This document shows positions 12,622 to 36,973 of a DNA stretch of 64,000 bases, in pieces. A program made the translations under genes and the position numbers. Position 1 is the stretch's first letter. Each line of letters opens with the position of its first letter. The stretch is from positions 14,857 through 78,856 of the IMG/VR virus record IMGVR_UViG_3300005805_000070; one strand, 5' to 3'. The notes beneath the pieces are model-generated. The model was not told the origin of the DNA, searched no databases, and worked only from the letters and a program-made list of their open reading frames with translations. The DNA is from a virus. Lineage: Duplodnaviria > Caudoviricetes.

Positions 12622-12650
12622 AGTTTAGCAGAAAAATCAGCGTTTGACAA
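12622..12650 (-). promoter_or_regulatory. sigma70-like promoter
   Basis: TTGTCA-N17-TAAACT. Confidence 0.55.
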
Positions 12651-12656
12651 CGCTGA
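12632..12656 (-). terminator. intrinsic terminator at the helicase stop
   Basis: TCAGCGTT-gtca-AACGCTGA followed by TTTTT. Confidence 0.6.
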
Positions 12657-13866
12657 TGGCGGGTTGCCCCTGGTTGAACACGGTATCCACTACCGCTTGC
12701 ACCTTCTTAGCGGTGCTGATGCCCACAGAAGAGTAGACAGGGATGCAGACCAGTCCAAAGGACTTGGTGTAGTCCTGAAGGGCACCAGGGGCGATCCTGC
12801 CGCTGCTGAGACCCTCTGCGTCGTCCTTGTGCAGGCGGATCACCCGACCGATGGTCTGGGAGATGCCAATGTAATCCATAGACCGCATAAACAGCACTGC
12901 CTCCAAACCAGAAACGTTGATGCCCTCGCTAAGAATGCTGTGATGCAGAACCACAAACTTCTTGTCGTTGTCCTTACCCCAGGCACTCAGAGTGTCAAAG
13001 AACACCTCACGGTTGACCTTCTGCCCATCAATCACGGCACCAGTCTTGGAAGTGATATACATCCAAGAGAACCCACGATCTTCCAGTTGCTGACAGAAAT
13101 CGGTCTGAGAAACCAGAGAAACGATCTGTTTGGTTGCCTTAGAGCAGATGAGAACCTTGCCCACTTCCTGAGCATCGATAGTCTGAATCAGATTCTCACA
13201 GTCAACATCAGCAACGATCTGACCCTTACCAAGCATCTCAAACTTCTGCACCACAACCTTAGGAGGAACAATGAAACCACCATCCACCAGTTCGGGAGCG
13301 GGCACATTGCAGATCACCTGCCCATAAACTTGGGAATCGTTCATCCCAGGTTTGGAAATAGTAGCAGAATGCTTAGGAGTAGCAGTGAAGAAATAGCAGC
13401 GGTCAGCAGTAGAAGCGAAATGCTCGGTGGCAGGGAAGAAATGGCGCTGGACAGAGTTGTGTGCTTCATCAAAGTAAATAGTATCAACGTGAATATCTGC
13501 CTGCTGAAGGCGCTGCAGAGAGTTGTAGGTGGTGAAGATAAGTTGGTGCTTGTAGGCACGACGAGACCAGTTGTAAATCTCAGCAGGTTTCGTGGTGCTT
13601 TGGTGATGAGTCTCACCACTATGAACGTGCAGAACAGCAACGTTAGTGATAAACTCAAGGTACTCAGCAGACAACTGCTCCGCCAGGAGGATTCTTGGAC
13701 AGCACACCACAATGGTCTTTGGGGCATCGGACTGAAACTCACGGAGAGCATCACAAATTCCCACAAGGGTTTTACCCCCACCAGTTGGGATGACCACCTG
13801 ACCTTTCAGGTACTTGGCAAGGGCATCCAGAGCACGTTGTTGGTGAGGTCGAAGTTGAATCATCAT
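12637..13866 (-). CDS. SF2 (DExH) helicase, type III Res-like, 409 aa
   Basis: LRPHQ, IPTGGGKT, FDEAH, TATP, LSEGINV, QTIGRVIR; start corrected to MMIQLRPHQ. Confidence 0.9.
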   Translation of the reverse strand: MMIQLRPHQQRALDALAKYLKGQVVIPTGGGKTLVGICDALREFQSDAPKTIVVCCPRILLAEQLSAEYLEFITNVAVLHVHSGETHHQSTTKPAEIYNWSRRAYKHQLIFTTYNSLQRLQQADIHVDTIYFDEAHNSVQRHFFPATEHFASTADRCYFFTATPKHSATISKPGMNDSQVYGQVICNVPAPELVDGGFIVPPKVVVQKFEMLGKGQIVADVDCENLIQTIDAQEVGKVLICSKATKQIVSLVSQTDFCQQLEDRGFSWMYITSKTGAVIDGQKVNREVFFDTLSAWGKDNDKKFVVLHHSILSEGINVSGLEAVLFMRSMDYIGISQTIGRVIRLHKDDAEGLSSGRIAPGALQDYTKSFGLVCIPVYSSVGISTAKKVQAVVDTVFNQGQPAISVVKR

Positions 13867-13885: not shown

Positions 13886-13944
13886 ATTATACAGCAAAAA
13901 ACAAGGGGACCGAAGCCCCCTTGTGCCACTAGAAGAACTGTTCC
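13886..13944 (-). promoter_or_regulatory. early-type promoter with upstream palindrome
   Basis: TATAAT 13886-13891; gtgccacta-gaag-aactgttcc 13923-13944. Confidence 0.6.
13896..13922 (-). terminator. intrinsic terminator with cUUCGg tetraloop
   Basis: AAGGGGGC-TTCG-GTCCCCTT then GTTTTTT, right after the stop of 13929..14330. Confidence 0.8.
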
Positions 13945-14330
13945 ACTCCCACAGGATTTCCAAAGGAGTAATCATATGTAAGTGCATCATGGCAAACATA
14001 ATGTGGATGGTCAAGTGGAATACCAATTCTTTGACACATCTCTTTATGATTATCTTCCATCAACTCAACAGAATAAACCATATTATCAATCACATATTGA
14101 CGATCATGGTATTCGGAAAGTTTATCAATTAATGCAATAACAAAATTTCCAGATCCAGCAGAATTATCAATAAATGTTGAAGATGGATCTCTCAACATAT
14201 GCTCTGATATTTCAGAAACCATTTTTTCACAAAGTTCTGTTGGGGTGAATACTTCTTGAGTTTCTGCGATTCTTTCATCAGAACGTTCAATGTTAGATCC
14301 AACATCTTGATTATGTTTATTTTTACTCAC
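13929..14330 (-). CDS. stand-alone SAM-binding (N-terminal) part of an adenine DNA methyltransferase, 133 aa
   Basis: EVFTP (motif X), FIDNSAGSGNF (I), YSVEL (II), HDAL (III); motif IV degenerate (FGNPVG); no TRD. Confidence 0.8.
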   Translation of the reverse strand: MSKNKHNQDVGSNIERSDERIAETQEVFTPTELCEKMVSEISEHMLRDPSSTFIDNSAGSGNFVIALIDKLSEYHDRQYVIDNMVYSVELMEDNHKEMCQRIGIPLDHPHYVCHDALTYDYSFGNPVGVEQFF

Positions 14331-15099
14331 CTTTGTCCTCCAAGCATTTGATGTAAGTTGTAATCAAATCATTTTTGCCAAAATGATAGCGTCCATTGCA
14401 CTGATTTGCAACTTCCCTAAACCTATCAGCAAATTCTAGAAAATTTTGAATTACTTGAGGGTCACGTACTTTAATAAAATGATGTCCCTTTGCATAATGA
14501 GTGAAATTTTCGGTTTTTACTCTACCACTCGGTCCACAACCATACTCTCCAATAAAAACATCTGCATCAAATCTTTTTTCATAAGCAAGAAATTCAAAAT
14601 CTGGGTGAGATGTGTGCATATGAATTTTTTCACGTTTCTCATCCTTCACAACCCAACGTTGTTTTACTGCATTGATTCCACCAGGAAAAGTTTTAGGATC
14701 ACAGTCTACATCTTCAATGCAATGAAGATTGGGTGAAATTTTATTCAAAGAAGATGGTTTACGCACAGAAGTGGGTAAAACAAATCGAATGTCATCAGTA
14801 AGTTCTGATGTTTTATTCAGAAATTTGATTGCAAGATTTCCACCAACACCATATGGAGGATTGCCAATTGCCAATGTAAAACGCATCTTCTGTTGAATTA
14901 ATAGATCTAGATCTTTTACTATGTTTATTTTAGCATGTTGTTGACGAATTGCATAGATGTGCGCTTCGTTATCTTCCCAAACCCAAATATTTTCTGGTTT
15001 AAATCCTTTTTTAAGGGATCTAAGAATATGTGAACCTACAGGATCACCAACTACAAGAATTTTACTTGTAATAGTTTGGAATGAAATTGTTGATTGCAT
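14323..15099 (-). CDS. adenine DNA methyltransferase-like protein (Eco57I-type motif IV), 258 aa
   Basis: FTLAIGNPPY, FVLP; non-canonical motif I (VVGDPVG). Confidence 0.8.
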   Translation of the reverse strand: MQSTISFQTITSKILVVGDPVGSHILRSLKKGFKPENIWVWEDNEAHIYAIRQQHAKINIVKDLDLLIQQKMRFTLAIGNPPYGVGGNLAIKFLNKTSELTDDIRFVLPTSVRKPSSLNKISPNLHCIEDVDCDPKTFPGGINAVKQRWVVKDEKREKIHMHTSHPDFEFLAYEKRFDADVFIGEYGCGPSGRVKTENFTHYAKGHHFIKVRDPQVIQNFLEFADRFREVANQCNGRYHFGKNDLITTYIKCLEDKGE

Positions 15100-16057
15100 C
15101 CTTTTGCTGTTGGTTCAAACCATAATACTCCATAATGCTATCATCTGTCCATTTCTGATCCAGTGGTGGAAGTGGCACATTCTCAATGTAACGGGAAACA
15201 TTATTACGATTGGTTGCTTTATTCAAAGCAAGAGCAAATCTTGCATACTTTGTCTTCAAATAAGAAACCAAACTATCTCTCTCCTCTTCAGAATTCAATG
15301 AATAGAACTTTCCTTCATTATTTTCCGATGTATAAATGTTGCTGTTGTGATAAAAAAATGTGTAGAAATCGTCAGCAAACAGCTTATTCTCATTGTTAAC
15401 TACTGGATGCCCACAAATAGTGGGGAGATTGAGAGGTACAGAATTTATATTTGATGTTCTAATGGACAGTAAATTTGTTTTGGAAGATTCTGCTCTTATT
15501 AAATCTCTCAATTCATAATTTAGTTCTGTTGGTTCCCAATATCCACTTGGGAAATCCTCAAGAGAATTAATATAGTATGTATTTCCTGTGGTTTTATAAA
15601 AAACCTCAATAGGACCTGTATGATTTTCCTTTGCCTTTGTGATTACAAGAGGTGCCTGGAACTGTGCATTAAAGACAGGATTTCCATTAAAAATAGTAAG
15701 TTTACAAACCCTATTCTTAAGAGATTTTCTTACATCTTTTTCTATCTGTTTTTCAGATCGAGTCAACCATCCAGATGGGTGAATCAGATTAACGTTTTTT
15801 GACCTTTCAAGAGCAATTTGAAGGAATTCAAGATGAAGTTGCCCCTTAAATGGGGGATTTCCTATGGTTAACGTGAAATCCATATCTATATTTTTATAAT
15901 CCTCCACAATATTAATTCTATCATCAATTTGTTTAATTGAATACAGATGAGTTGGATCATTCTCCCAAACGTATATATTCTCTGGATTAAATCCCTTTTG
16001 AATCGATCTAAGAGAATGAATCCCATTTGGATCCCCAAAAATGCAGAGATTAGACAT
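15062..16057 (-). CDS. adenine DNA methyltransferase-like protein with C-terminal TRD, 331 aa
   Basis: FTLTIGNPPF, LIHPSGW; C-terminal SYLKTKYARF...VPLP...WTDDSIMEYYGL; non-canonical motif I (IFGDPNG). Confidence 0.8.
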   Translation of the reverse strand: MSNLCIFGDPNGIHSLRSIQKGFNPENIYVWENDPTHLYSIKQIDDRINIVEDYKNIDMDFTLTIGNPPFKGQLHLEFLQIALERSKNVNLIHPSGWLTRSEKQIEKDVRKSLKNRVCKLTIFNGNPVFNAQFQAPLVITKAKENHTGPIEVFYKTTGNTYYINSLEDFPSGYWEPTELNYELRDLIRAESSKTNLLSIRTSNINSVPLNLPTICGHPVVNNENKLFADDFYTFFYHNSNIYTSENNEGKFYSLNSEEERDSLVSYLKTKYARFALALNKATNRNNVSRYIENVPLPPLDQKWTDDSIMEYYGLNQQQKDAINNFIPNYYK

Positions 16058-18183
16058 TAGAAAAAATCGCCCAGAAGATCATCAATCAATTCTACAGGCA
16101 TCGACTGCTGACTCTGCCGTGAGCAGGACAGTTTCTCAAGTGTCTTACACTCATCAATGTTCATAGAATGTTGAATGTCTACGACTGCTTGATTGATTCG
16201 ATAAGAAAAAGATTTTGCATCAATAACTTCATCAAAAACCAATTCCTCAATGATCTTTTCCGTATCAAGAGTGTTATAAATGTAGTGATCTGTATTAATC
16301 AGACTATGAACACTATTAGGAATAACCCCACTCTTAATGCAGTGGTAAATCGTAAGAGGAACTCTCTCTAGAATTGCACGAATCGTCTCTTTTTTAGTAA
16401 GAACAAGTGAATTATCTTGTTTTTCGGAGGATTCACCATCGCGTTGAATGTTTCCTTTACCATTAGCACCATTGTCGTTCACCACTCTCTTACTACCATT
16501 GTTCTTTTCTTTTGAACGAAGGGAGAAATTGAATTGATAATTTGCAAGTTTTTCCATATCCATGCTGTTCACGATGTTAGAAATCAGGGATATGGTGTTA
16601 GTGGCATCAGAAGCAAGAATTGAAGCGATCTGATCTTGAGACATAATCTCAAAACCATTTGCCCACTCAACAATCGAAACAAAATCGAGCATAATGTACT
16701 CTGAAATCATTGGATTGTTTTCACACGCAGCAATATAAATCTCACGGAGAGTTTTAAGACAACGTTGTGGACAAAAATCAATCACATCCCAATCACGATC
16801 AGAGGATCCACCACGGAAAGCAAATTGAGTCCAAAAATTAATCGACTCACCTTCACTAGCATTGATAACAGTATCAATTTCAGGAATGGTAACGCCAAGA
16901 ACATTAGCAGAAACAGTCAGAATAATAGTGTATTCATTCTCTGCAATGTGCTTTTTAATCGTGTCAGCATCTTCTTTTGTGTCTCCAGTTACAACTAAAG
17001 GAGCAAACTTAGTCTTCTCCAAATACTTAACAGAAGCATGGCAAGATGCAACAGAAGGAAGTGTCATAAAGATATGAAACTTACCATTCAAAAGTCGATC
17101 TTTTGGTTTTAGGTGCTTTTGATCTCCAAAGGTTTCGGAGTAGAAGTCCTGCACCAGAGAAGGTTCGACAAAATCAGTCTCATCCTTTCTAATGGAAAAA
17201 AGATTCTTCATCGCATCAGGATCATCTCCAAACAACTTCTTGTATGCATCCGACTCATACTTTCGAAGAATAACTCTCATCGCAGGGGCATTATTCAAAC
17301 CCAGTTTCTTATTCAGTTGCTCTTCAAAATAAGAGTAGGTATAAGAATTAGACTCGGAGAAGTCCCAAACCATAGAAAAAGCAGTACCAGTTACATACAG
17401 AACCTGACAATCAAACTTCTTACGGAGTTTCTTAAATTGAGTTGAATTGTAACCCTGGTGTGCTTCATCATAGACGATCAGATCTACATCACATGGAATC
17501 TTGCTCCAGCGATTGTTACCCTGAATCGTGGTCCACAAAACCAGTTGTTTGTCAGTATTATACCAATATTCAATCTGCTCCAGATAGTCTTTATCTGCGA
17601 GATTGATGAATACAATATTGTTGAAATCTGAAAAGTTTTTACTATCTGCTCTCCAGGATTGAATTGGAGAAGTGTAACGAGAAACAATCAAACTTACCTT
17701 AATACCTTTACGTGCAATTGCTGACAAAACCATGATGGACTTACCAGCACGGCACTTAGCAAACAGAAGAAATTCTTTCCACTCTTCCCAAGTAGATAGG
17801 ACCTTATTAATAAATTCTTGTTGATGCTTTTTGAGAGTCAGATTCTTTTTCTTCGGAGAATTCTTAGAGAAAAAAGTTTCTTGAATGAATTGAGTGACCT
17901 TTTCATGAGTCATCCCAAAACCAGTAATCTCAAAAGATTCTGTACCAACCTGCTTGATTCCAGGAAGTTTTGCAACCTCTTTATGAATCTGCTTATCACG
18001 ACCGTCAAAACCTTCCCAGAAAGCAAACTCCTTATAAATGATGCCCGCATCACGTGCTTTGTTGTAATCAGCACCACGACGAGGAATACCATACTCCTCA
18101 ATCATCAAAGGACCATCAGTCTGACCAATACCAAACCAATTAGGATTGTTATTATGACCGACGTGATAAATGTTCGTTGCCAT
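16057..18183 (-). CDS. restriction-like nuclease-helicase: N-terminal GIY-YIG/T5orf172-like domain plus SF2 helicase, 708 aa
   Basis: IY...IGQT...RR...D.QIH...GTESF N-terminus; AKCRAGKS, YDEAH, VTGT, QFAFRGGS. Confidence 0.8.
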   Translation of the reverse strand: MATNIYHVGHNNNPNWFGIGQTDGPLMIEEYGIPRRGADYNKARDAGIIYKEFAFWEGFDGRDKQIHKEVAKLPGIKQVGTESFEITGFGMTHEKVTQFIQETFFSKNSPKKKNLTLKKHQQEFINKVLSTWEEWKEFLLFAKCRAGKSIMVLSAIARKGIKVSLIVSRYTSPIQSWRADSKNFSDFNNIVFINLADKDYLEQIEYWYNTDKQLVLWTTIQGNNRWSKIPCDVDLIVYDEAHQGYNSTQFKKLRKKFDCQVLYVTGTAFSMVWDFSESNSYTYSYFEEQLNKKLGLNNAPAMRVILRKYESDAYKKLFGDDPDAMKNLFSIRKDETDFVEPSLVQDFYSETFGDQKHLKPKDRLLNGKFHIFMTLPSVASCHASVKYLEKTKFAPLVVTGDTKEDADTIKKHIAENEYTIILTVSANVLGVTIPEIDTVINASEGESINFWTQFAFRGGSSDRDWDVIDFCPQRCLKTLREIYIAACENNPMISEYIMLDFVSIVEWANGFEIMSQDQIASILASDATNTISLISNIVNSMDMEKLANYQFNFSLRSKEKNNGSKRVVNDNGANGKGNIQRDGESSEKQDNSLVLTKKETIRAILERVPLTIYHCIKSGVIPNSVHSLINTDHYIYNTLDTEKIIEELVFDEVIDAKSFSYRINQAVVDIQHSMNIDECKTLEKLSCSRQSQQSMPVELIDDLLGDFF

Positions 18184-18215: not shown

Positions 18216-18271
18216 ATTATAGCAGAAAAGGAACCCTTGTGAGGTTCCTTATCCACTTTATAAACTGTCAC
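18216..18271 (-). promoter_or_regulatory. early-type promoter with upstream palindrome
   Basis: TATAAT 18216-18221; tatccactt-tata-aactgtcac 18250-18271. Confidence 0.6.
18226..18250 (-). terminator. intrinsic terminator
   Basis: AAGGAACC-tcacaag-GGTTCCTT then TT, downstream of 18333..20402. Confidence 0.6.
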
Positions 18272-18332
18272 AGCCCTTGTTTCCAACGACCACAAAGGTA
18301 TTTTAGCGATAATTATGGGGTCTTGTCAAGTA

Positions 18333-20402
18333 TTAGAATAGGAGCAATGAAGTTGCTCCAACACCAGCAACTGTAAATACAATTCTTGCAGGTGATGTTG
18401 CATATGAAATTTGAATACCATCAGAACCACTTGAATTGAATCCACCAGTTGCTGTCAATACAGCAGTGTTTGCATTGTATGCAAGGTTGCCATTATCAAT
18501 TAATGGTTGTTGAGCACCAGTTGCGTTATTTGGTGCCAACATTGGATATGTTGTTGTATCTGTTGATGTAGTTGCACTGATGTTTACGTTAGTTGCAATA
18601 CCAGCAGTCGCAGCATATCCAATATTTGTTAGATCTCTCCAAATAGATCCATTATGAATTTGGTGAGAGTTTGTTGTACTGTTAAATATAAGTGCTCCAG
18701 GATTCAAACTCAAACTATTTCTTTGAGCTCCTGTTACTGTTGGTGGGATTAAATATCTACCAGTGTCATCAACACCTCTTCCTGCAGAAGAGAAGTCTGC
18801 ATAAGATAGTGGGGTCGTAGATCCAACACCAACACCACCAAGTAAACAGAATACTTGATTTGCATCAAAACCAGATCCAAATGAAAGTTCAGTTGTTCCA
18901 ATACCAACTCCACCCTCACTGATGAAAACTGAGTTAACGATGCCTGGTTGACCAACTTGAATTGGATAGATTGGATTATTATTTCTAATACCAATTTTAT
19001 CAGTAACAGTAACTTTTCCTTCAACTTGAAGGTCATTCACCGTTGAAATTCCAGTCAGAACATAAACGTTTTTTCCAGAAATATCAATATCGTTCGCCCC
19101 AGTAACTGATAAACCACCAAGTACTGTTAATGATTGTTTAACGGTTAAATTTTGGTCAATAAAAGTATTACCAGTAATTGATGTTACGCCAACAACTTTT
19201 AATTTTTCTGGTGCATTACTTACTCCAATACCAAGATTTCCTGTATAGGAAAGTGTCATTAATGGTGTAAGAGGATCTTTACCCCAGAGCCAATTGAATC
19301 CGCCAGTTGCTACTCCAGTTGTTGATCCAAAGTGCAAATAACTATTGATATTTCCTCGATCATAGTTTATAATATCAAAAGAATTTGTATTACTATATGG
19401 ATAAATGATGCTAGAATTACCAAATTTAAGTCCAGCGGTATTTGCCAATTGGTTTACACTTCTACCCAATGTAAAAGTAGATTCCGTAGTTCCAGTAAGT
19501 TGAATCGATGAAATTCCTGTCTTTGTGATATGAATATCACTTTGAGGACTTAATGTGTTAAATCCGATTCTTCCAGTAATATTCGCTCTTGTTGGTACAG
19601 TAAGAATACCCGCATTAATAACATTAGCAGTAAAACTATTAATTCCAAGATTAGTAGTTGCTGGAAGTGTAATTGCAGTTGATGCAATACCAATAACATT
19701 ACCAGTAACGTTACCAGTTAAATTACCACTAAATCCAGAAAGTGCAGTTATTACACCAACAACTTCGAAAGAATCTGGAATTTTTGCTGGAGGAATAACT
19801 GGTAATCTATCAGAACTGATTGTTCCTGTTGCAATATTTGCTGCTGCAATATTTGTTACATTTGCACCATTTCCAGAGAAAAATCCAGCAGTTATAATTC
19901 CAGTAGCAACAATACCACCTGCGGAATTAATTCCTACCCCATTTTGGAAGAATACAGTACTGTTATTACCACCAATTTGAAGAACAAATCTTGGATCATT
20001 AGTTGCAATACCAACAAATCCTTGGGCATATATGCTAGTAAATCCAAGACCTACATCAACATCTAACCATTGAGATGTTGGTAGGTTTAAAAGTCTTCCA
20101 CCATCTCCAAAATAAGTAATTACTCCTGATGTTGAAGTTGCGGTTACGATTCCACTAGATGTAACTGATAAAATTCCAATGGAAGCAGATCTTACCGTGG
20201 CAAATCCAGTTGCGATTAGATCATTAGTATAATATTGAGATGCAGTGATAACACCGACAACCTTAACTGTACCCCTAACGTCCAGTGCTTCTGTTGGAAC
20301 AGTCGTGCCAATTCCAACCAGACCTAACGGGTTTACAATTAGATTATCGTCATCAACTTGAACACCATTACGAAAATTAAAGGTCTTTCTGATATTTGCC
20401 AT
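18333..20402 (-). CDS. virion structural / tail-fibre-like protein, 689 aa
   Basis: Repeated VGIGT / IGIN beta-strand units; Gly/Thr/Ser rich; late promoter upstream. Confidence 0.75.
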   Translation of the reverse strand: MANIRKTFNFRNGVQVDDDNLIVNPLGLVGIGTTVPTEALDVRGTVKVVGVITASQYYTNDLIATGFATVRSASIGILSVTSSGIVTATSTSGVITYFGDGGRLLNLPTSQWLDVDVGLGFTSIYAQGFVGIATNDPRFVLQIGGNNSTVFFQNGVGINSAGGIVATGIITAGFFSGNGANVTNIAAANIATGTISSDRLPVIPPAKIPDSFEVVGVITALSGFSGNLTGNVTGNVIGIASTAITLPATTNLGINSFTANVINAGILTVPTRANITGRIGFNTLSPQSDIHITKTGISSIQLTGTTESTFTLGRSVNQLANTAGLKFGNSSIIYPYSNTNSFDIINYDRGNINSYLHFGSTTGVATGGFNWLWGKDPLTPLMTLSYTGNLGIGVSNAPEKLKVVGVTSITGNTFIDQNLTVKQSLTVLGGLSVTGANDIDISGKNVYVLTGISTVNDLQVEGKVTVTDKIGIRNNNPIYPIQVGQPGIVNSVFISEGGVGIGTTELSFGSGFDANQVFCLLGGVGVGSTTPLSYADFSSAGRGVDDTGRYLIPPTVTGAQRNSLSLNPGALIFNSTTNSHQIHNGSIWRDLTNIGYAATAGIATNVNISATTSTDTTTYPMLAPNNATGAQQPLIDNGNLAYNANTAVLTATGGFNSSGSDGIQISYATSPARIVFTVAGVGATSLLLF

Positions 20403-20429: not shown

Positions 20430-20918
20430 CTATTTTTGTATCTGAACTTCTGAATTCTTTTTAACATCAATCATTAAAAACTCCATAGGTTGATCAGATA
20501 GATTTCCACCATCATGAATATGGTCCATTACTGGGAATACTTGAGAAACTCCTTCTTCCCAATAAATTTTTTCACCCTGCCAAGTCATATAACATTTTTC
20601 TCTATCTGGAATTATTAATGGTATTTGAATTCTCTTATATGGTTCTCTATAAACATTAGGATCACGATGTGGTTTTAATATCGTTCCCTCAGAAAAAACT
20701 GAATAAGTTGCATACAAAATATCCTCATTTTCAAATATATGATAAACCATATCAGTCATTAATTTTTTACGGATGTTGACAGTTTTGCCAACACCCTTTA
20801 ACCAGGAAATAAAGATATCTTTATTAGTATACCCTTCCGTTGTTGGTGCTTTTTTTAGAGGAAATTCAGTTTGTTTTGCCCAATTATAAAGAATATTTAA
20901 ATCTTTTTCCGTAATCAT
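20430..20918 (-). CDS. aspartyl/asparaginyl beta-hydroxylase-like 2OG oxygenase
   Basis: LKPHRDP, RIQIPLIIP, WEEG, HIHDGGN, LMIDV. Confidence 0.8.
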   Translation of the reverse strand: MITEKDLNILYNWAKQTEFPLKKAPTTEGYTNKDIFISWLKGVGKTVNIRKKLMTDMVYHIFENEDILYATYSVFSEGTILKPHRDPNVYREPYKRIQIPLIIPDREKCYMTWQGEKIYWEEGVSQVFPVMDHIHDGGNLSDQPMEFLMIDVKKNSEVQIQK

Positions 20919-29442: not shown

Positions 29443-29517
29443 TAGCGGTGGCGAGATTCGAACTCGCACTGTATTGATTTTAAGTCAACTGCCTGCTGCC
29501 GATTGGGCTACACCGCC
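29443..29517 (-). tRNA. trnL-UAA: tRNA-Leu(UAA), short variable loop, no encoded CCA
   Basis: Acceptor GGCGGTG/CACCGCT-A; anticodon arm GTTGA-CT TAA AA-TCAAT; T arm GCGAG-TTCGAAT-CTCGC. Confidence 0.9.
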
Positions 29518-29526
29518 GATGGGACC

Positions 29527-29555
29527 ATCATAACTCTTGGAGTCGTAATGGTCAA
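29527..29555 (-). promoter_or_regulatory. sigma70-like promoter for tRNA-Leu
   Basis: TTGACC-N17-TATGAT, 10 nt upstream of the tRNA 5' end. Confidence 0.7.
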
Positions 29556-29556
29556 G

Positions 29557-29629
29557 TGCCCGTTGCGTGGATCGAACACGCCTAAATTCGATTATGAGTC
29601 GAGTCCTTTCACCAGATAGGTAAACGGGC
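29557..29629 (-). tRNA. tRNA with CAU anticodon (elongator Met or lysidine-type Ile2)
   Basis: Acceptor GCCCGTT/AACGGGC-A; TCGA-CT CAT AA-TCGA; T arm GCGTG-TTCGATC-CACGC; lacks initiator features. Confidence 0.85.
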
Positions 29630-29632
29630 AGG

Positions 29633-29720
29633 TACGAGTGCCTGGATTCGAACCAGGTCAAAGCCGCTAATCTGGCGGAAAGAGTTTATAAGACTCCTCT
29701 GACTACCAAGTCTCACTCGC
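29633..29720 (-). tRNA. atypical tRNA(-like) RNA with UAU anticodon and long variable arm
   Basis: Acceptor GCGAGTG/CACTCGT-A; T arm CCTGG-TTCGAAT-CCAGG; GGAGT-CT TAT AA-ACTCT; extra hairpin CCGC/GCGG; reduced D arm. Confidence 0.75.
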
Positions 29721-31540: not shown

Positions 31541-34500
31541 TCAATACTGATACCAAATATCACCATTGTTTCCACCACTTGCACCTGCTGTAGAAACCGT
31601 TCTTGTTCCGTAAGCATTACTTGTTGATGCAATATTAATGGTTGTTCCAGAAGAAACAGTAATTGGGTTTGTTCCACCATAACTGGTTTGGTTAACTGTA
31701 ATCGTAACGTTTGTTGAACCTTGTAGACCCTGGTTTCCAAATGATCCCTGAGCACCTTGAGTTCCTTGTCCACCAACTCCACCAAAAGCACCTTGTAAAC
31801 CTTGAAGACCTTGACGTCCTTGAGTTCCTTGAGCACCTTGAGCACCATTTCCACCAAATAAACCTTGAGTACCTTGAGCACCTATTCTTCCTTGAGCACC
31901 TTGAGCACCTTGTGCTCCAGTGCCACCAAATTGGCCTTGAATACCCTGAGCACCTATTAAACCTTGAGCACCTTGAGTTCCTTGTCCACCAACTCCACCA
32001 AAAGCACCTTGAAGTCCTTGAGCACCTATAGAACCTTGAATACCTTGAGCACCTTGTGCTCCAGTGCCACCAAATTGGCCTTGAATACCTTGTCTTCCTT
32101 GAGCACCTTGAGCACCTTGAGCACCTTGAGCACCAGCACCTGGAGATCCTTGTAAACCTTGTCTACCTTGAGCACCCTGAAGTCCTTGAATTCCTTGAGC
32201 ACCTTGAGCACCAGAACTACCAAGTATGCCTTGAAGTCCCTGTAATCCTTGAGTTCCTTGAGCACCCTGAGCACCAACACCACCAAACGTTCCTTGAACA
32301 CCTTGAAGACCTTGAGCACCTTGAGCACTTAAACCACCTTGCAGTCCCTGAGCGCCTTGTCTCCCCTGAGCACCTTGAGCACCTGCACCTTGAAGACCTT
32401 GTAATCCTTGACGTCCTTGAAGACCTTGAGCACCTTGGGTTCCTTGAGCACCAATATTTCCTTGAATACCCTGAGCACCTTGAGTGCCCTGAGCACCTTG
32501 GGCACCCACACCACCAAATGTTCCCTGAGCACCTTGTAAACCTTGAGAACCTTGAGCTCCCTGTGCTCCCTGTGCTCCCTGAACACCCGAACCTTGTACA
32601 CCTTGAGCACCCTGTCTTCCTTGAAGACCCTGAGCACCTTGAGTGCCCTGAGCACCTTGAGCACCACCAGATCCAGATAAACCTTGAAGACCTTGTAAAC
32701 CCTGAGATCCTTGTGCTCCTTGGGCTCCTTGAATGCCTTGAGCACCCTGTCTTCCTTGAAGACCTTGAGCACCTTGGGTTCCTTGAGAACCTTGCATTCC
32801 TTGAGTTCCTTGAGCACCTTGCCCACCAACACCACCAAATTGCCCTTGGATACCTTGAGCACCCTGTAGACCTTGGGTTCCCTGCAATCCTTGAATGCCT
32901 TGAGCACCCTGTCGTCCTTGAAGACCCTGAGCACCTTGAGTTCCTTGAGCACCTTGTAGTCCTTGTGTGCCTTGAGCACCCTGGGCACCTACACCACCGA
33001 AAGTTCCTTGTAATCCTTGAGCACCCTGTAGACCTTGAGTTCCTTGAGCGCCTTGTGCTCCTTGAGTTCCTTGTGCTCCTTGAGTTCCTTGGAGTCCCTG
33101 GAAACCTTGAGTTCCTTGAAGACCCTGCAATCCTTGGCGACCTTGAGCACCCTGTAAACCTTGAGATCCCTGAAGACCCTGTAATCCTTGAAGACCTTGA
33201 GTTCCCTGAGCACCTTGAGCACCTATAGAACCAAAAGTACCTTGTGATCCTTGAGCACCTTGAAGTCCTTGATTTCCTTGTAACCCCTGAGTTCCCTGAG
33301 CACCTTGGGTTCCCTGCAATCCTTGTAATCCCTGATTTCCTTGTAAACCTTGAGTACCTTGAGCGCCTTGAGCACCAGTTCCACCAAAAGTGCCTTGAGT
33401 TCCCTGTAAACCTTGCAATCCCTGAGTTCCCTGGGCACCCTGCAATCCTTGGCGACCTTGAGCACCCTGTAAACCTTGAGTTCCCTGAGCACCTTGTAGT
33501 CCTTGCAACCCTTGAGTTCCCTGAGCACCTTGGGCACCAGTAGTACCATCTGTTCCTTGTAAACCTTGTCTACCTTGTAAACCTTGTAATCCCTGAGTTC
33601 CCTGAGCACCCTGAAGTCCTTGAGTTCCCTGCAATCCCTGGAATCCTTGAGTTCCCTGAAGACCCTGCAAACCTTGGCGACCTTGAGAACCCTGAAGACC
33701 TTGAGTTCCCTGCAATCCTTGGAAACCTTGGACTCCTTGGAGACCTTGGAGACCTTGGAGACCTTGGGTTCCCTGTAATCCTTGTAATCCCTGATTTCCT
33801 TGTAAACCTTGAGTTCCTTGAGCACCTTGGGCACCAGTTCCACCAAAAGTTCCCTGTAAACCTTGAGCACCCTGTAAACCTTGAGAACCCTGAAGTCCCT
33901 GTAATCCTTGAAGACCTTGAGTTCCTTGAGTTCCTTGCAATCCTTGGAAACCTTGAACACCTTGAAGTCCCTGTAATCCCTGAAGACCTTGAGTTCCTTG
34001 TAATCCTTGTGCTCCTTGTAAACCTTGAACACCTTGCAATCCTTGGGCACCTTGAGAACCTTGAAGACCAGTAAATCCGCTAAGACCTTGAGTTCCTTGA
34101 GCACCTTGCAATCCTTGAATGCCTTGTAATCCCTGAAGACCCTGAGTTCCCTGAGCCCCTTGTGTTCCTTGAGCTCCTTGTAGCCCCTGAGAACCTTGAA
34201 GTCCTTGTAATCCCTGAAGACCTTGAGTTCCTTGAGTACCCTGTAATCCTTGGGCGCCTTGAGTTCCCTGAGCACCTTGTGTTCCTGTATCTCCACCTAG
34301 ACCTTGAGTTCCTTGAAGACCTTGTAAACCTTGGGTTCCTTGTAAACCTTGAGTTCCTTGTAAACCTTGAGTTCCTTGAGCGCCTTGTGCTCCCTCCATT
34401 CCTTGAACACCTTGTGTTCCTTGAGCACCTTGCGCTCCCTCCATTCCTTGAACACCTTGTGTTCCCTGAAGACCTTGTAAACCTTGTAAACCTTGTGCTC

Positions 34501-36973
34501 CCTGGAGACCTTGACCAGCGAATAATCCATCAAGACCCTGGACACCTTGCAATCCCTGGATTCCTTGTAAACCTTGAATTCCCTGCAATCCCTGAACACC
34601 TTGGGCACCTTGAAGACCAGTTTCTCCGAGTGCTCCTTGAAGACCCTGTAGACCTTGAATTCCCTGCAATCCCTGAACACCCTGGCCACCCTGTAAACCA
34701 GTATTTCCAGATTCTCCTTGTACTCCAGTTCTTCCCTGAGTTCCTTGAAGACCTTGTGTTCCTTGCCCACCAACACCACCAAATAAACCTTGAGAACCTT
34801 GGAATCCAGCTAAACCTTGAGATCCCTGAGTTCCTTGTGCTCCTTGAGCTCCAACAGCACCAAAAGTTCCTTGAGAACCTTGAGCACCTATAGATCCCTG
34901 TAAACCTTGAGCACCTACACCACCAAAAGTTCCTTGATTCCCCTGTAAACCTTGGGTTCCTTGTCTACCTTGAGTTCCTTGAGCACCCTGAGCACCTACA
35001 CCACCAAATAATCCTTGAATTCCCTGAAGACCTTGAGTTCCTTGAGTTCCTTGAGCGCCTTGTGCTCCAGTGCCACCAAAAGCACCTTGAAGACCTTGTA
35101 AACCTTGAAGACCTTGAGTTCCTTGAGCCCCAACACCACCAAATAAACCTTGAGTACCTTGAGCACCCTGTGTTCCTTGTGCTCCTTCTGTTCCTTGAGT
35201 TCCTCCAGCACCTTCTGTTCCTTGAATTCCTGTTCTACCCTGAACACCTTGAGTTCCTTGGGTTCCTTGTGCGCCTTGAGCTCCACTATCTCCAAAAGTT
35301 CCTTGAAGACCTTGGGCACCTTGCATACCTTGTAGACCTTGAGTTCCCTGTGCTCCAAGAGCACCAGATAAACCCTGAGATCCTTGAGAACCTTGCAATC
35401 CTTGAGTTCCTTGTGCTCCTTGAGTGCCTTGTGCCCCAGTTCCACCAAAAGTACCTTGTGATCCTTGAGCACCTTGTGATCCTAAAGTTCCTTGGAGACC
35501 TTGCGTTCCTTGAGTTCCTTGGAGTCCCTGAAGACCTTGAGCACCTTGTAATCCCTGAACACCTTGAGTTCCTTGAGTACCTTGTGCCCCAGTTCCACCA
35601 AAAGTACCTTGTGATCCTTGAGCACCTTGTAAACCTTGGCGTCCTTGTCCTCCCTGAAGACCTTGCAAACCTTGAACACCTTGAGTTCCTTGGGCACCTT
35701 GCATTCCTTGAGTGCCTTGAGTTCCCTGAGTTCCTTGTGAACCTGTTGAACCGCTAGAACCCTGAGTTCCTTGTCTTCCTTGAGTTCCTTGTAAACCTTG
35801 GTTTCCTTGAGTTCCTTGAGACCCCTGAGCACCGTCAGCCCCTTGTGTTCCCTGATTACCTTGTAATCCTTGAGCACCCTGACCACCAACTCCACCAAAT
35901 AATCCTTGAGATCCTTGAGTTCCTTGGGCACCCTGTAATCCTTGAGTGCCTTGAGCACCTTGCAAACCTTGCAGACCCTGAGTTCCTTGTCTTCCTTGCA
36001 ATCCTTGAAGACCTTGAACACCCTGAAGACCTTGAGCTCCCTGAAGACCTTGTAAACCTTGCAGACCTTGAACGCCCTGAGGACCAGGATCTCCAATATT
36101 TCCTTGGACACCTTGAGCACCCTGAATTCCTTGAGCTCCTTGAATACCTTGAGCACCCTGAGCACTTTGTGGTCCTTGAAGACCCTGAGTTCCCTGAAAA
36201 CCTATACCTTGAGAACCCTGTAAACCTTGAGCACCTTGTAAACCTTGAGTTCCTTGAGCACTTAATCCACCCTGAGTTCCCTGAGCACCCTGAGCACCTT
36301 GCAGACCCTGTAATCCTTGGAGGCCAGTCCCGCCAAATTGACCTTGAGTTCCTTGGGCGCCCTGTAAACCTTGCCCAGCAAAATCACCAGGAATACCTTG
36401 AGCACCCTGGGTTCCTTGCCCACCTTGCGCTCCTTGTGCTCCTTGTGCTCCTTGAGCACCCTGCGCTCCTTGAATACCTTGTGCGCCTATCCTCCCCTGC
36501 GCTCCTTGTGCTCCTTGTGCTCCTTGTGTTCCTTGAGTACCCTGACCTGCAAATTCACCAGGAATACCTTGAGCACCTTGGGTTCCCTGTGCTCCCTGCG
36601 CCCCAGCAGAACCTTGAGTACCCTGAGCACCCTGACGACCTTGAATACCTTGTGCGCCTTGAGCACCTTGTGTACCTTGTGCTCCTTGTGTACCTTGAGC
36701 ACCCTGCGTTCCCTGTAGACCTTGAACCGTTAGTTCTAAACTAGGAACCCAATATCTTTTTCCAGTATAAAAATTATTATTTGTACCATCATCAACTGCA
36801 GTGAGAACATACTGATCTCCTGCAGGATATGGATTTGCTCCAACAGAAGATACTCCAACACGAGGATCTCCTAAGTCTGGTTCTGCTTGTTCCAGGCCAA
36901 GAAATTCGTATCTATCCGAAGTGATACCTGTTTGTGGTAATCTTTTTTCTCTTCCAGAAACAAGTCTTCCCAT
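31541..36973 (-). CDS. collagen-like (Gly-X-Gln) fibre protein, 1810 aa
   Basis: About 550 Gly-X-Y triplets between short non-repetitive ends; C-terminal GDIWYQY. Confidence 0.9.
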   Translation of the reverse strand: MGRLVSGREKRLPQTGITSDRYEFLGLEQAEPDLGDPRVGVSSVGANPYPAGDQYVLTAVDDGTNNNFYTGKRYWVPSLELTVQGLQGTQGAQGTQGAQGTQGAQGAQGIQGRQGAQGTQGSAGAQGAQGTQGAQGIPGEFAGQGTQGTQGAQGAQGAQGRIGAQGIQGAQGAQGAQGAQGAQGGQGTQGAQGIPGDFAGQGLQGAQGTQGQFGGTGLQGLQGLQGAQGAQGTQGGLSAQGTQGLQGAQGLQGSQGIGFQGTQGLQGPQSAQGAQGIQGAQGIQGAQGVQGNIGDPGPQGVQGLQGLQGLQGAQGLQGVQGLQGLQGRQGTQGLQGLQGAQGTQGLQGAQGTQGSQGLFGGVGGQGAQGLQGNQGTQGADGAQGSQGTQGNQGLQGTQGRQGTQGSSGSTGSQGTQGTQGTQGMQGAQGTQGVQGLQGLQGGQGRQGLQGAQGSQGTFGGTGAQGTQGTQGVQGLQGAQGLQGLQGTQGTQGLQGTLGSQGAQGSQGTFGGTGAQGTQGAQGTQGLQGSQGSQGLSGALGAQGTQGLQGMQGAQGLQGTFGDSGAQGAQGTQGTQGVQGRTGIQGTEGAGGTQGTEGAQGTQGAQGTQGLFGGVGAQGTQGLQGLQGLQGAFGGTGAQGAQGTQGTQGLQGIQGLFGGVGAQGAQGTQGRQGTQGLQGNQGTFGGVGAQGLQGSIGAQGSQGTFGAVGAQGAQGTQGSQGLAGFQGSQGLFGGVGGQGTQGLQGTQGRTGVQGESGNTGLQGGQGVQGLQGIQGLQGLQGALGETGLQGAQGVQGLQGIQGLQGIQGLQGVQGLDGLFAGQGLQGAQGLQGLQGLQGTQGVQGMEGAQGAQGTQGVQGMEGAQGAQGTQGLQGTQGLQGTQGLQGLQGTQGLGGDTGTQGAQGTQGAQGLQGTQGTQGLQGLQGLQGSQGLQGAQGTQGAQGTQGLQGLQGIQGLQGAQGTQGLSGFTGLQGSQGAQGLQGVQGLQGAQGLQGTQGLQGLQGLQGVQGFQGLQGTQGTQGLQGLQGLQGSQGLQGAQGLQGTFGGTGAQGAQGTQGLQGNQGLQGLQGTQGLQGLQGLQGVQGFQGLQGTQGLQGSQGRQGLQGLQGTQGFQGLQGTQGLQGAQGTQGLQGLQGRQGLQGTDGTTGAQGAQGTQGLQGLQGAQGTQGLQGAQGRQGLQGAQGTQGLQGLQGTQGTFGGTGAQGAQGTQGLQGNQGLQGLQGTQGAQGTQGLQGNQGLQGAQGSQGTFGSIGAQGAQGTQGLQGLQGLQGSQGLQGAQGRQGLQGLQGTQGFQGLQGTQGAQGTQGAQGAQGTQGLQGAQGLQGTFGGVGAQGAQGTQGLQGAQGTQGAQGLQGRQGAQGIQGLQGTQGLQGAQGIQGQFGGVGGQGAQGTQGMQGSQGTQGAQGLQGRQGAQGIQGAQGAQGSQGLQGLQGLSGSGGAQGAQGTQGAQGLQGRQGAQGVQGSGVQGAQGAQGAQGSQGLQGAQGTFGGVGAQGAQGTQGAQGIQGNIGAQGTQGAQGLQGRQGLQGLQGAGAQGAQGRQGAQGLQGGLSAQGAQGLQGVQGTFGGVGAQGAQGTQGLQGLQGILGSSGAQGAQGIQGLQGAQGRQGLQGSPGAGAQGAQGAQGAQGRQGIQGQFGGTGAQGAQGIQGSIGAQGLQGAFGGVGGQGTQGAQGLIGAQGIQGQFGGTGAQGAQGAQGRIGAQGTQGLFGGNGAQGAQGTQGRQGLQGLQGAFGGVGGQGTQGAQGSFGNQGLQGSTNVTITVNQTSYGGTNPITVSSGTTINIASTSNAYGTRTVSTAGASGGNNGDIWYQY
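31718..36721 (-). repeat. coding 9-nt periodic repeat (Gly-X-Gln codons)
   Basis: + strand ccttgagca / ccttgagtt / ccttgaaga units over 5 kb. Confidence 0.95.

What the first reader, a model, noticed from the sequence alone, without database searches (positions are those of the whole stretch)
13929..18183. Phage-encoded four-gene restriction-modification-like operon, insulated as a cassette
Coupled genes in order: nuclease-helicase (708 aa), MTase (331 aa, NPPF), MTase (258 aa, NPPY), SAM-binding subunit (133 aa). An early-type promoter/terminator element sits at each end, and a second SF2 helicase follows immediately. Lytic T4-like phages usually carry orphan methylases, not a Res-like ATPase with a nuclease domain. 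Possible roles (inference): degrading unmodified host DNA, excluding co-infecting phages, or shielding from host RM.
Basis: partly seen in the sequence, partly recalled or inferred. Interest (0 to 1): 0.8.

Follow-up and report, generated by a model that had tools for sequence, protein, structure and literature searches.

The report
Cyanophage motor-nuclease with split methylase genes
A T4-like cyanophage carries a tight four-gene operon that looks like an ATP-driven restriction-modification enzyme taken apart, and its smallest gene belongs to a split DNA methylase that is widespread in marine phages and has not been studied.

Summary
Four overlapping minus-strand genes (708, 331, 258 and 133 aa) lie at 13929-18183 between two similar hairpin/T-run/TATAAT elements. 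All four are under purifying selection (dN/dS 0.07-0.28).

The module recurs in 30 viral contigs and in three groups of isolates: S-CAM7, MA01-type phages and some ACG-2014f isolates.

- **The two middle genes** are compact M.TaqI-like adenine methylases with a shared 70-aa head and unrelated recognition domains.
- **The 133-aa protein** is the motif X/I/II/III half of a methylase, cut exactly before strand beta-4.

In most cyanophages this half pairs with a headless NPPY body and no motor is present. Heads appear only where a motor or nuclease-like domain is linked. In one clade motor and methylase are fused, giving the domain order of Type ISP enzymes.

Best reading (about 0.5): a phage-borne, Type ISP-like restriction-modification system with swappable specificity subunits. 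Nuclease activity, methylation and the role of the 133-aa half beside head-bearing methylases are all untested.

First-stage notes on an overlapping window of this same genome had flagged the same genes. I rate it a new variant of a known kind.

The parts
16057..18183 (-). P0001, 708 aa: motor protein. It has an N-terminal GIY-YIG/T5orf172-like domain (residues 1-105), an SF2 ATPase core (about 112-470), an all-helical C-terminal region (472-708) and a motif-X-like tail (PVEL).
17869..18183 (-). N-terminal domain of P0001 (residues 1-105), the candidate nuclease.
   Evidence: N4, Y6, F17, G20, T22, D39, K42, D63 and E82 are invariant in 20 loci. Model secondary structure is beta-beta-alpha-alpha-beta-alpha. 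The top Atlas clusters are T5orf172/MUG113 at 0.89-0.90. Homologue P0112 has Pfam T5orf172 at this position. The Pfam models do not hit P0001 itself.
15062..16057 (-). M1 (P0002), 331 aa: methylase-like protein. It has a head (motifs I-III, residues 1-58), NPPF at 67-70 and a type-A C-terminal body/recognition domain.
   Evidence: phrog_11371 covers residues 59-311. The head is 43% identical to that of M2.
14323..15099 (-). M2 (P0003), 258 aa: compact gamma-class adenine-methylase-like protein. It has a head, NPPY at 80-83 and a type-B C-terminal domain (about 165-258).
13929..14330 (-). P0004, 133 aa: free-standing methylase N-half carrying motifs X, I, II and III. It ends just before where strand beta-4 would start.
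   Evidence: phrog_4376 E 6e-72. 633 representative proteins at E <= 0.001. The half occurs alone, at the N-terminus of contiguous methylases (P0139) and at the C-terminus of permuted ones (P0124, P0152).
18216..18329 (-). Upstream control region: TTGACA-18-TAAAAT (18329-18300), then a hairpin, a T-run and TATAAT (18275-18216).
13886..13930 (-). Downstream element: a 10-bp GC-rich hairpin, a T-run and TATAAT, lying between P0004 and the next helicase gene.

Best explanation
The operon encodes an ATP-dependent, Type ISP-like restriction-modification machine in separate pieces.

- **Shown.** Gene order, coupling, conservation, the ATPase motifs, the methylase folds and the exact split point of the 133-aa half.
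- **Inferred, step 1.** P0001 is the motor-nuclease. A GIY-YIG/T5orf172-like domain cuts DNA, an SF2 ATPase translocates on double-stranded DNA, and a helical C-terminal region ending in a motif-X-like tail docks onto the head of a methylase subunit.
- **Inferred, step 2.** M1 and M2 are alternative M.TaqI-like N6-adenine methylases. Their unrelated C-terminal domains read two different DNA sequences, so they set the specificity of both methylation and motor loading.
- **Inferred, step 3.** P0004 is the trans-acting SAM-binding half of the same methylase family. In most cyanophages it completes a headless NPPY body to give a two-subunit methylase. In this operon it probably supports a motor-independent modification enzyme, perhaps with headless products of M1/M2 started at a conserved internal Met.
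- **Inferred, step 4.** Phage DNA is methylated and so spared. Unmethylated DNA of the host or of co-infecting phages is cut.
For: - **Conserved module.** Motor, then one or two M genes, then the 133-aa gene in 30 viral loci and 8 isolate records. Genes are joined by ATGA/TGATG coupling. All four are under purifying selection.
- **Natural fusions.** A clade has motor and M fused in one protein of about 1050 aa: L019-L025, L028, L029, L031-L033 and MA01. The resulting order (nuclease-like domain, ATPase, helical region, methylase, recognition domain) is the order that defines Type ISP enzymes (PMC4666363).
- **Motor fold.** Closest to double-stranded-DNA translocases, among them LlaBIII, SauUSI and HsdR. 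The ATPase motifs are invariant.
- **Nuclease candidate.** The N-domain keeps Y6, F17-x-x-G20-x-T22, an Arg, D63/H67 and E82 in 20 loci. [quoted passage not shown]
- **Methylase fold.** The M2 model is a full Rossmann methylase plus a second domain. Only gamma-class DNA adenine methylases match it end to end.
- **The 133-aa half.** Its family occurs contiguous, permuted or split at one and the same point.
- **Headless bodies.** They dominate the relatives, are always followed by the 133-aa gene and have no ResIII-type motor gene directly upstream.
- **Heads.** They occur only with a motor. A different head goes with a different, distantly related motor.
- **Cellular relative.** The only one found sits next to an Eco57I-family methylase.
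Against: - No nuclease activity or methylation has been measured.
- The nuclease domain is not detected by the Pfam T5orf172 or MUG113 models, by PDB profiles or significantly by hhalign. Its fold was not searched on its own.
- PADLOC has no match for the motor.
- The M proteins fall below Pfam's Eco57I threshold (17.4 against 25.3 bits).
- AF2 shows that M2 already has its own N-half in cis, so the role given here to P0004 is not explained by structure.
- One motor locus (L014) has no 133-aa gene nearby.
- The most common form of the island has no motor or nuclease. Methylation alone may therefore be the main function.
Confidence: 0.5

Rival explanations
1. A motor-assisted methylation device with no restriction. 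P0001 only translocates and carries M1/M2 along phage DNA, so that the genome is methylated quickly and shielded from host restriction. This is similar in spirit to the methylase-helicase protein DarB of phage P1. On this reading the N-terminal domain binds DNA rather than cutting it.
For: The island's commonest form is a methylase only, so protection by methylation is the shared function. The N-domain is the least conserved part of P0001 and is not recognised by nuclease family models. Aravind's group discusses T5orf172 in a recombination context rather than restriction (PMC7824862).
Against: The GIY-YIG-type residue set, including the Glu, is invariant across motors that are 39-82% identical overall. 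A T5orf172-like N-terminus also appears fused directly to a head-bearing methylase without any ATPase in S-SKS1. That reading rests on motifs only. The domain order equals that of true restriction enzymes.
Confidence: 0.22
2. A selfish mobile cassette. The T5orf172-like domain acts as a homing-type endonuclease that spreads the motor-methylase cassette between related cyanophages during co-infection. The methylases protect the carrier genome from its own nuclease.
For: T5orf172 genes are typical phage homing endonucleases and mark recombination boundaries (PMC10448857). Near-identical ACG-2014f isolates differ at exactly this place: motor plus M in C24 against another cassette in C90. The module lies in a variable region beside tail-fibre genes.
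Against: Homing endonucleases are small and free-standing. Here the domain is always fused to a conserved ATPase whose motifs are invariant. This reading overlaps with, rather than excludes, a restriction-modification system, since those are themselves selfish.
Confidence: 0.1
3. An RNA-directed system. M1/M2 are RNA m6A methylases and P0001 is an RNA helicase, acting on host or phage RNA.
For: The best Foldseek and VIA scores of the M2 Rossmann domain are to the rRNA and tRNA adenine methylases KsgA, ErmC', METTL5 and TrmN.
Against: Those matches cover only residues of about 9-155. The only end-to-end matches are the DNA methylases CamA, M.TaqI and M.BseCI. Sequence profiles point to Type II/IIG DNA methylases. 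The motor resembles DNA translocases more than DEAD-box RNA helicases.
Confidence: 0.05

Closest known systems
[quoted passage not shown]
   Different: The nuclease-like domain is GIY-YIG/T5orf172-like, not Mrr. In the window the enzyme is split into separate genes. There are two alternative methylase subunits and an extra free N-half methylase gene. The system is carried by a lytic-type phage, not a plasmid or chromosome. There is no detectable sequence similarity outside the ATPase core.
Type III restriction-modification systems (Mod plus Res, e.g. EcoP15I)
   Same: A separate methylase/specificity subunit plus an SF2 'ResIII' motor subunit (Pfam PF04851).
   Different: By my knowledge of the family, Res proteins carry a C-terminal PD-(D/E)xK nuclease and Mod is a beta-class enzyme encoded upstream of res. 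Here the nuclease-like domain is N-terminal, the C-terminus is all-helical, the methylases have gamma order and the motor gene comes first.
Gamma-class N6-adenine DNA methylases M.TaqI, CamA and M.BseCI; Pfam Eco57I family
   Same: A two-domain build (Rossmann methylase plus C-terminal recognition domain) and an NPPY/NPPF catalytic motif. These give the end-to-end structural matches of M2. There are weak Eco57I and Type II methylase profile hits.
   Different: M1/M2 are much smaller (258-331 aa). They have an unusual motif I (GDPxGxH) and no motif X of their own.
Naturally split or permuted DNA methylases (M.AquI and M.EcoHK31I two-subunit C5 enzymes; permuted amino-methylase classes), recalled from the literature and not tested here
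   Same: The conserved motifs are distributed over two polypeptides, or re-ordered, around one fold.
   Different: Here an amino-methylase is cut between motifs III and IV. The gene for the catalytic half comes first. The same family also exists in contiguous and single-chain permuted forms. The N-half gene stays even where the body has gained a cis N-half.
T5orf172 nucleases of phage ICP1 (e.g. Odn)
   Same: A GIY-YIG-related domain with a catalytic Glu, common in lytic phages (PMC8263062, PMC10448857).
   Different: Those are small homing-type or DNA-binding-domain fusions. Here the domain heads an SF2 ATPase and is too divergent for the Pfam model.

Membership tests
Type ISP restriction-modification enzyme | All activities in a single polypeptide | tested here: not met
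   The window has four separate genes. Relatives fuse motor and methylase but still keep the 133-aa gene apart.
Type ISP restriction-modification enzyme | N-terminal Mrr-family PD-(D/E)xK nuclease | tested here: not met
   No Mrr or PD-(D/E)xK profile hit. The conserved residues follow a GIY-YIG/T5orf172-like pattern instead.
Type ISP restriction-modification enzyme | SF2 helicase-like ATPase followed by coupler, gamma-class adenine methylase and recognition domain | tested here: met
Type ISP restriction-modification enzyme | ATP-driven translocation and cleavage on collision of two enzymes | not testable with these tools
   This needs biochemistry.
Type III restriction-modification system | Res subunit with a C-terminal PD-(D/E)xK nuclease | tested here: not met
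   The C-terminal 240 residues are predicted all-helical with no nuclease profile hit. The nuclease-like domain is N-terminal.
Type III restriction-modification system | Beta-class Mod methylase encoded upstream of res | tested here: not met
   M1 and M2 have motif order I-II-III-IV-recognition domain and lie downstream of the motor gene.
GIY-YIG / T5orf172 nuclease domain | Match to the family profile (PF10544, PF13455) | tested here: not met
   No hit for P0001. One family member, P0112, hits PF10544 at E 7.2e-05 in the same position. hhalign of the N-domain profile against P0112 gives E 0.064, which is not significant.
GIY-YIG / T5orf172 nuclease domain | Conserved Tyr, (Y/F/K)-x-x-G-x-T, Arg and catalytic Glu | tested here: met
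   Y6, F17, G20, T22, D63 and E82 are invariant, H67 is nearly so, and an Arg is present in every sequence, across 20 loci.
GIY-YIG / T5orf172 nuclease domain | GIY-YIG fold | tested here: inconclusive
   The model shows beta-beta-alpha-alpha-beta-alpha at pLDDT of about 70-88. The fold searches were filled by the ATPase core, so residues 1-110 were barely tested. The language-model search points to T5orf172 at 0.90.
Gamma-class N6-adenine DNA methylase (M.TaqI-like, Pfam Eco57I) | (N/D)PP(Y/F) catalytic motif after strand beta-4, with motifs I-III upstream and a recognition domain downstream | tested here: met
   NPPF at 67-70 and NPPY at 80-83. N80, P81, P82 and Y83 are invariant. Seven-strand fold plus a second domain. 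CamA, M.TaqI and M.BseCI align over residues 6-258.
Gamma-class N6-adenine DNA methylase (M.TaqI-like, Pfam Eco57I) | Score above the Pfam gathering threshold | tested here: not met
   M2 scores 17.4 bits against 25.3. M1 has no hit. PADLOC Type II methylase models hit M2 at E 1.3e-09.
Gamma-class N6-adenine DNA methylase (M.TaqI-like, Pfam Eco57I) | Transfers methyl to adenine N6 in DNA | not testable with these tools
   This needs a methylome or an enzyme assay.
Two-subunit (split) methylase | The conserved motifs of one fold are divided between two adjacent genes, and single-chain relatives join at the same point | tested here: met
   Headless bodies start at M-(K/R)-F-T-L-A-I-G-N-P-P-Y and are followed by the X/I/II/III gene. 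P0139 is contiguous, while P0124 and P0152 are permuted, all at the same junction. In the window the bodies also carry a cis head, so the split is only partial there.

The most novel reading that the evidence does not exclude
The head of M1/M2 and the free 133-aa protein are two alternative N-halves for the same catalytic body.

- With the cis head, clamped by the motif-X-like tail of the motor, the body would serve the motor-nuclease as its DNA-reading subunit.
- A headless product, started at the Met kept 7 residues before GNPPY in nearly all such genes, would pair with the 133-aa half as a free methylase.

One gene would then feed both restriction and modification, with the balance set at the level of translation initiation or subunit exchange. 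In addition, the stand-alone N-half family (633 representative proteins) would define a large class of two-subunit amino-methylases in marine phages.
Probability: 0.15. Interest if true: 0.8.

Novelty: new variant of a known kind. Interest (0 to 1): 0.62.

Why it matters
T4-like cyanophages control the most abundant marine phototrophs, yet little is known about how they compete with each other or handle host DNA. A phage-borne, ATP-driven restriction-modification machine with swappable specificity subunits would be a weapon against host or rival DNA, not just a shield against restriction.

The split methylase is common in ocean metagenomes: single 90%-identity clusters hold more than 300 sequences. 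It would be a natural example of one Rossmann fold assembled from two genes, useful for understanding methylase evolution and for engineering specificity.

The module can be tested directly in cultured phages such as S-CAM7, MA01, ACG-2014f and P-SSM2.

Tried and rejected
The heptamer is absent from 19 other split loci, which use ATGA/TGATG overlaps instead.
- **Downstream helicase as a component.** It is present next to the island with or without the motor, lies 4 kb upstream in L009-L011, and is separated here by a terminator/promoter element.
- **Known defence systems.** PADLOC gives nothing for the motor or M1. NCBIfam gives nothing for the motor, M1 or M2.
- **PDB by sequence.** Nothing for P0001, for its family profile or for its N-domain profile. 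Only chance-level hits for M1, M2 and P0004.
- **Pfam T5orf172 and MUG113 run directly on the genome.** No hit.
- **hhalign of the N-domain profile against P0112.** Not significant.
- **C-terminal 'GNPVG' of P0004 as a degenerate motif IV.** Rejected. In the contiguous relative P0139 this stretch is the linker before the true beta-4/NPPF.
- **Shine-Dalgarno signal before the internal Met of M genes.** Neither the true starts nor the internal Met show one, so this is uninformative.
- **Nuclease nature of neighbouring proteins in other phages.** No family hit for the ACG-2014f C90 200-aa protein or the 373-aa neighbour of P0124, and only a sub-threshold DpnI_C hit (E 0.014) for the P-SSM2 462-aa protein.
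- **Literature.** No paper on this module was found.

Full report
**1. What is in the window**

The minus strand of 13929-18183 holds four ORFs of 708, 331, 258 and 133 aa at exactly the reported coordinates. Here they are called P0001, M1 (P0002), M2 (P0003) and P0004.
- The stop of P0001 overlaps the start of M1 (TAATG).
- M1 and M2 overlap by 38 nt.
- M2 and P0004 overlap by 8 nt.

GC content is 34-37%, like the rest of the contig. The contig is a 78.9-kb fragment of a virus, estimated 35% complete. It carries long tail and baseplate-type ORFs and three tRNA genes. Its nearest isolates are Kyanoviridae, the T4-like cyanophages.

Upstream of P0001 lies a TTGACA-18-TAAAAT site, then a hairpin, a T-run and TATAAT. 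Downstream of P0004 lies a second hairpin, T-run and TATAAT of the same build. Both hairpins fold at about -18 kcal/mol with z near -3.2. Whether the elements act as terminators and promoters is untested.

**2. The motor protein**

P0001 matches Pfam ResIII (E 9.8e-08) and, almost end to end, the uncharacterised phrog_22930. Across 34 relatives the following are invariant:
- Walker A, A-K-C-R-x-G-K
- D-E-A of the DEAH box
- G-T-A of motif III
- Q-F-A-F-R-G-G-S

An AlphaFold model (pLDDT 81.4) matches double-stranded-DNA translocases best:

|---|---|
| RadD | 24.2 |
| INO80 | 22.8 |
| FANCM | 22.3 |
| Type ISP enzyme LlaBIII | 20.7 |
| HsdR fragment | 17.0 |

Foldseek also lists LlaBIII, SauUSI, ZorD and HsdR. 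After the ATPase core the protein is all-helical, with a disordered stretch at 560-590.

**3. The candidate nuclease domain**

In 20 loci, whose motors are 39-82% identical overall, residues N4, Y6, F17, G20, T22, D39, K42, D63 and E82 never change. H67 is nearly invariant, and an Arg is present in every sequence. This is the pattern of GIY-YIG and T5orf172 domains.

T5orf172 is a GIY-YIG subfamily. In at least one case its nuclease activity was shown to depend on a glutamate (PMC10448857; PMC8263062).

Supporting points:
- A language-model search with residues 1-110 returns T5orf172/MUG113 clusters as its three best hits, at 0.89-0.90.
- One family member, P0112, has a Pfam T5orf172 hit at this position.

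Points against:
- The Pfam models do not hit P0001.
- A profile comparison with P0112 is not significant.
- PDB profiles find nothing.
- The fold searches did not test this domain.

I therefore treat the nuclease as probable, not shown.

**4. The two methylase-like genes**

M1 and M2 share a head of about 70 residues:
- GDPxGxH in place of motif I
- V-W-E as motif II
- I-N-x-x-x-D as motif III
- GNPP(F/Y) as motif IV

After the head they become unalignable. Across the related loci at least five body types follow the same head.

The M2 model (pLDDT 87.6) has all seven strands of a class I methylase, with the head forming strands 1-3, plus a C-terminal domain. Many RNA and small-molecule methylases match the Rossmann part. 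Only the gamma-class DNA adenine methylases match residues of about 6-258:

|---|---|---|
| CamA | 13.0 | 242 |
| M.TaqI | 12.3 | 232 |
| M.BseCI | 11.5 | 242 |

 PADLOC Type II methylase models hit M2 at E 1.3e-09. Pfam Eco57I hits it only below threshold.

Some relatives carry two or three tandem copies of the C-terminal domain of about 95 residues. This fits a recognition module.

**5. The 133-aa protein**

P0004 has motif X (VFTP), motif I (DNSAGSGNF), a motif II Glu and a motif III Asp. Then it ends.

A search of 1.84 billion representatives finds 633 relatives at E <= 0.001, most of them 120-200 aa. The same half also occurs in two other settings:
- At the N-terminus of ordinary contiguous methylases. 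In P0139 the sequence runs straight on into beta-4 and NPPF.
- At the C-terminus of circularly permuted ones. P0124, P0152 and P0193 begin with GNPP(F/Y) within their first 13 residues.

So P0004 is a methylase N-half cut exactly before strand 4.

**6. The module is one state of a variable island**

P0004-like genes are in 66 phage records, far more than the 8 that have the motor.
- In P-SSM2 the gene before it is a 193-aa headless body that starts at the beta-4/NPPY strand. It is 73% identical to residues 72-256 of M2.
- Among 205 relatives of M2, headless bodies of 185-205 aa are the large majority of those listed. Some 90%-identity clusters hold more than 300 sequences.
- In each headless case examined, the 133-aa gene follows with an overlapping start and no ResIII-type motor gene lies directly upstream.
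- Head-bearing bodies always had the motor upstream.
- A second, unrelated head lacking SAM-type residues goes with a second, distantly related motor. hhalign aligns the N-domain motifs, Walker A and the DEAD box at E 3.3e-04.
- In S-SKS1 a head-bearing body is fused to an N-terminal region with a similar GIY-YIG-like motif and no ATPase. This rests on motif reading only.
- In one clade (L019-L025, L028, L029, L031-L033 and MA01-type isolates) motor and methylase are one protein of about 1050 aa.
- Near-identical ACG-2014f isolates carry different cassettes at this place.
- In 185,579 species genomes only one distant relative of the motor turned up. It is coupled to an Eco57I-family methylase.

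**7. How it most likely works**

The fused forms have the order nuclease-like domain, SF2 ATPase, helical region, gamma-class methylase, recognition domain. That order is the definition of Type ISP restriction-modification enzymes (PMC4666363).

The motor ends in a PVEL-containing tail that resembles motif X of P0004. In the fusions this tail lies about ten residues before the head's motif I. The tail may therefore complete the SAM pocket of M1 or M2 and tie motor to methylase.

I propose the following:
- P0001 with M1 or M2 forms an ATP-dependent restriction complex with two alternative specificities.
- Methylation by the same family protects phage DNA.
- Unmethylated host or rival-phage DNA is the target.

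This fits the purifying selection on all four genes and the repeated linkage of heads to nuclease-like partners.

The weakest point is P0004. Structure prediction says M2 already has a cis N-half, yet P0004 is kept (dN/dS 0.08-0.25). A Met seven residues before GNPPY is kept in nearly all head-bearing genes and fusions. That could allow a headless product which pairs with P0004. I could not test this.

**8. Rivals**

- **Methylation-only device with a motor (0.22).** It fits the fact that most islands have no nuclease. It does not explain the invariant GIY-YIG-type residues.
- **Homing-type selfish cassette (0.10).** It fits the patchy distribution. It does not fit the constant fusion to a conserved ATPase.
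- **RNA-directed system (0.05).** It rests only on partial fold matches.

**9. Comparison and novelty**

The system works like a Type ISP enzyme but is not a member. It is not a single polypeptide in the window and lacks the Mrr nuclease. It also fails the Type III definitions: position of the nuclease, class of methylase and gene order.

GenBank records give relatives generic names such as 'type II restriction-modification system restriction subunit' and 'Eco57I'. I found no paper that studies them.

I rate it a new variant of a known kind. The motor-nuclease type, the carriage by lytic-type cyanophages and the split, permutable methylase with a free N-half are the new aspects. First-stage notes on an overlapping window of the same genome had flagged the same genes. 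Their frameshift idea is not supported.

Noticed in passing
window 12637-13866 (minus strand): The helicase gene after the operon is 45.6% GC against 34-37% around it. It is 71.8% identical at the DNA level to the helicase of the unrelated cyanophage S-SKS1. It is a conserved neighbour of the methylase island in many cyanophages.
   Followed up: partly
window 31541-36973: A stretch of 49-51% GC (32-36 kb) lies inside an 1810-aa ORF and throws up many long shadow ORFs on both strands. It may be a repetitive structural protein.
   Followed up: no
window 29443-29720: Three adjacent tRNA genes on the minus strand: Leu(taa), Met(cat) and Ile(tat).
   Followed up: no
window 18333-20402 and 20430-20918: A tail-protein gene (phrog_3269) lies directly upstream of the operon. 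Its N-terminal 200 residues are conserved, but its length varies from 516 to 1697 aa in related loci. Next to it is an Asp/Asn beta-hydroxylase-like gene (PF05118).
   Followed up: partly
P0292, P0382, P0393 (L043:5001-6308), L004:8070-9083: Relatives of M2 carry two or three tandem copies of the C-terminal domain of about 95 aa (HPDFEF...GRVKTENF...GKNDLI). These may be methylases with several recognition modules.
   Followed up: partly
window 14884-14886 (Met72 of M2) and 15881-15883 (Met59 of M1): A Met seven residues before GNPP(Y/F) is kept in nearly all head-bearing methylase genes of every body type and in the motor fusions. It is the start codon of the headless genes and may be an internal start.
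   Followed up: partly
L041:3985-5817 (ACG-2014f isolate C90) versus L004:5998-9083 (isolate C24): Isolates of one phage species carry different cassettes at the same place after the 133-aa gene. One has a 200-aa protein with a GVDG...QIK motif (Mrr-like by eye, no profile hit) plus a 393-aa methylase. The other has the motor plus a methylase.
   Followed up: partly
L039:4044-5432 (P-SSM2 gene 038): A 462-aa protein next to the split methylase of P-SSM2 has a weak hit to the DpnI C-terminal domain (E 0.014), which binds methylated DNA in DpnI.
   Followed up: no
L045:2741-7760 (Bacilli MAG): This is the only cellular relative of the motor found. It is a 1083-aa ResIII protein translationally coupled to a 588-aa Eco57I-family methylase.
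   Followed up: partly
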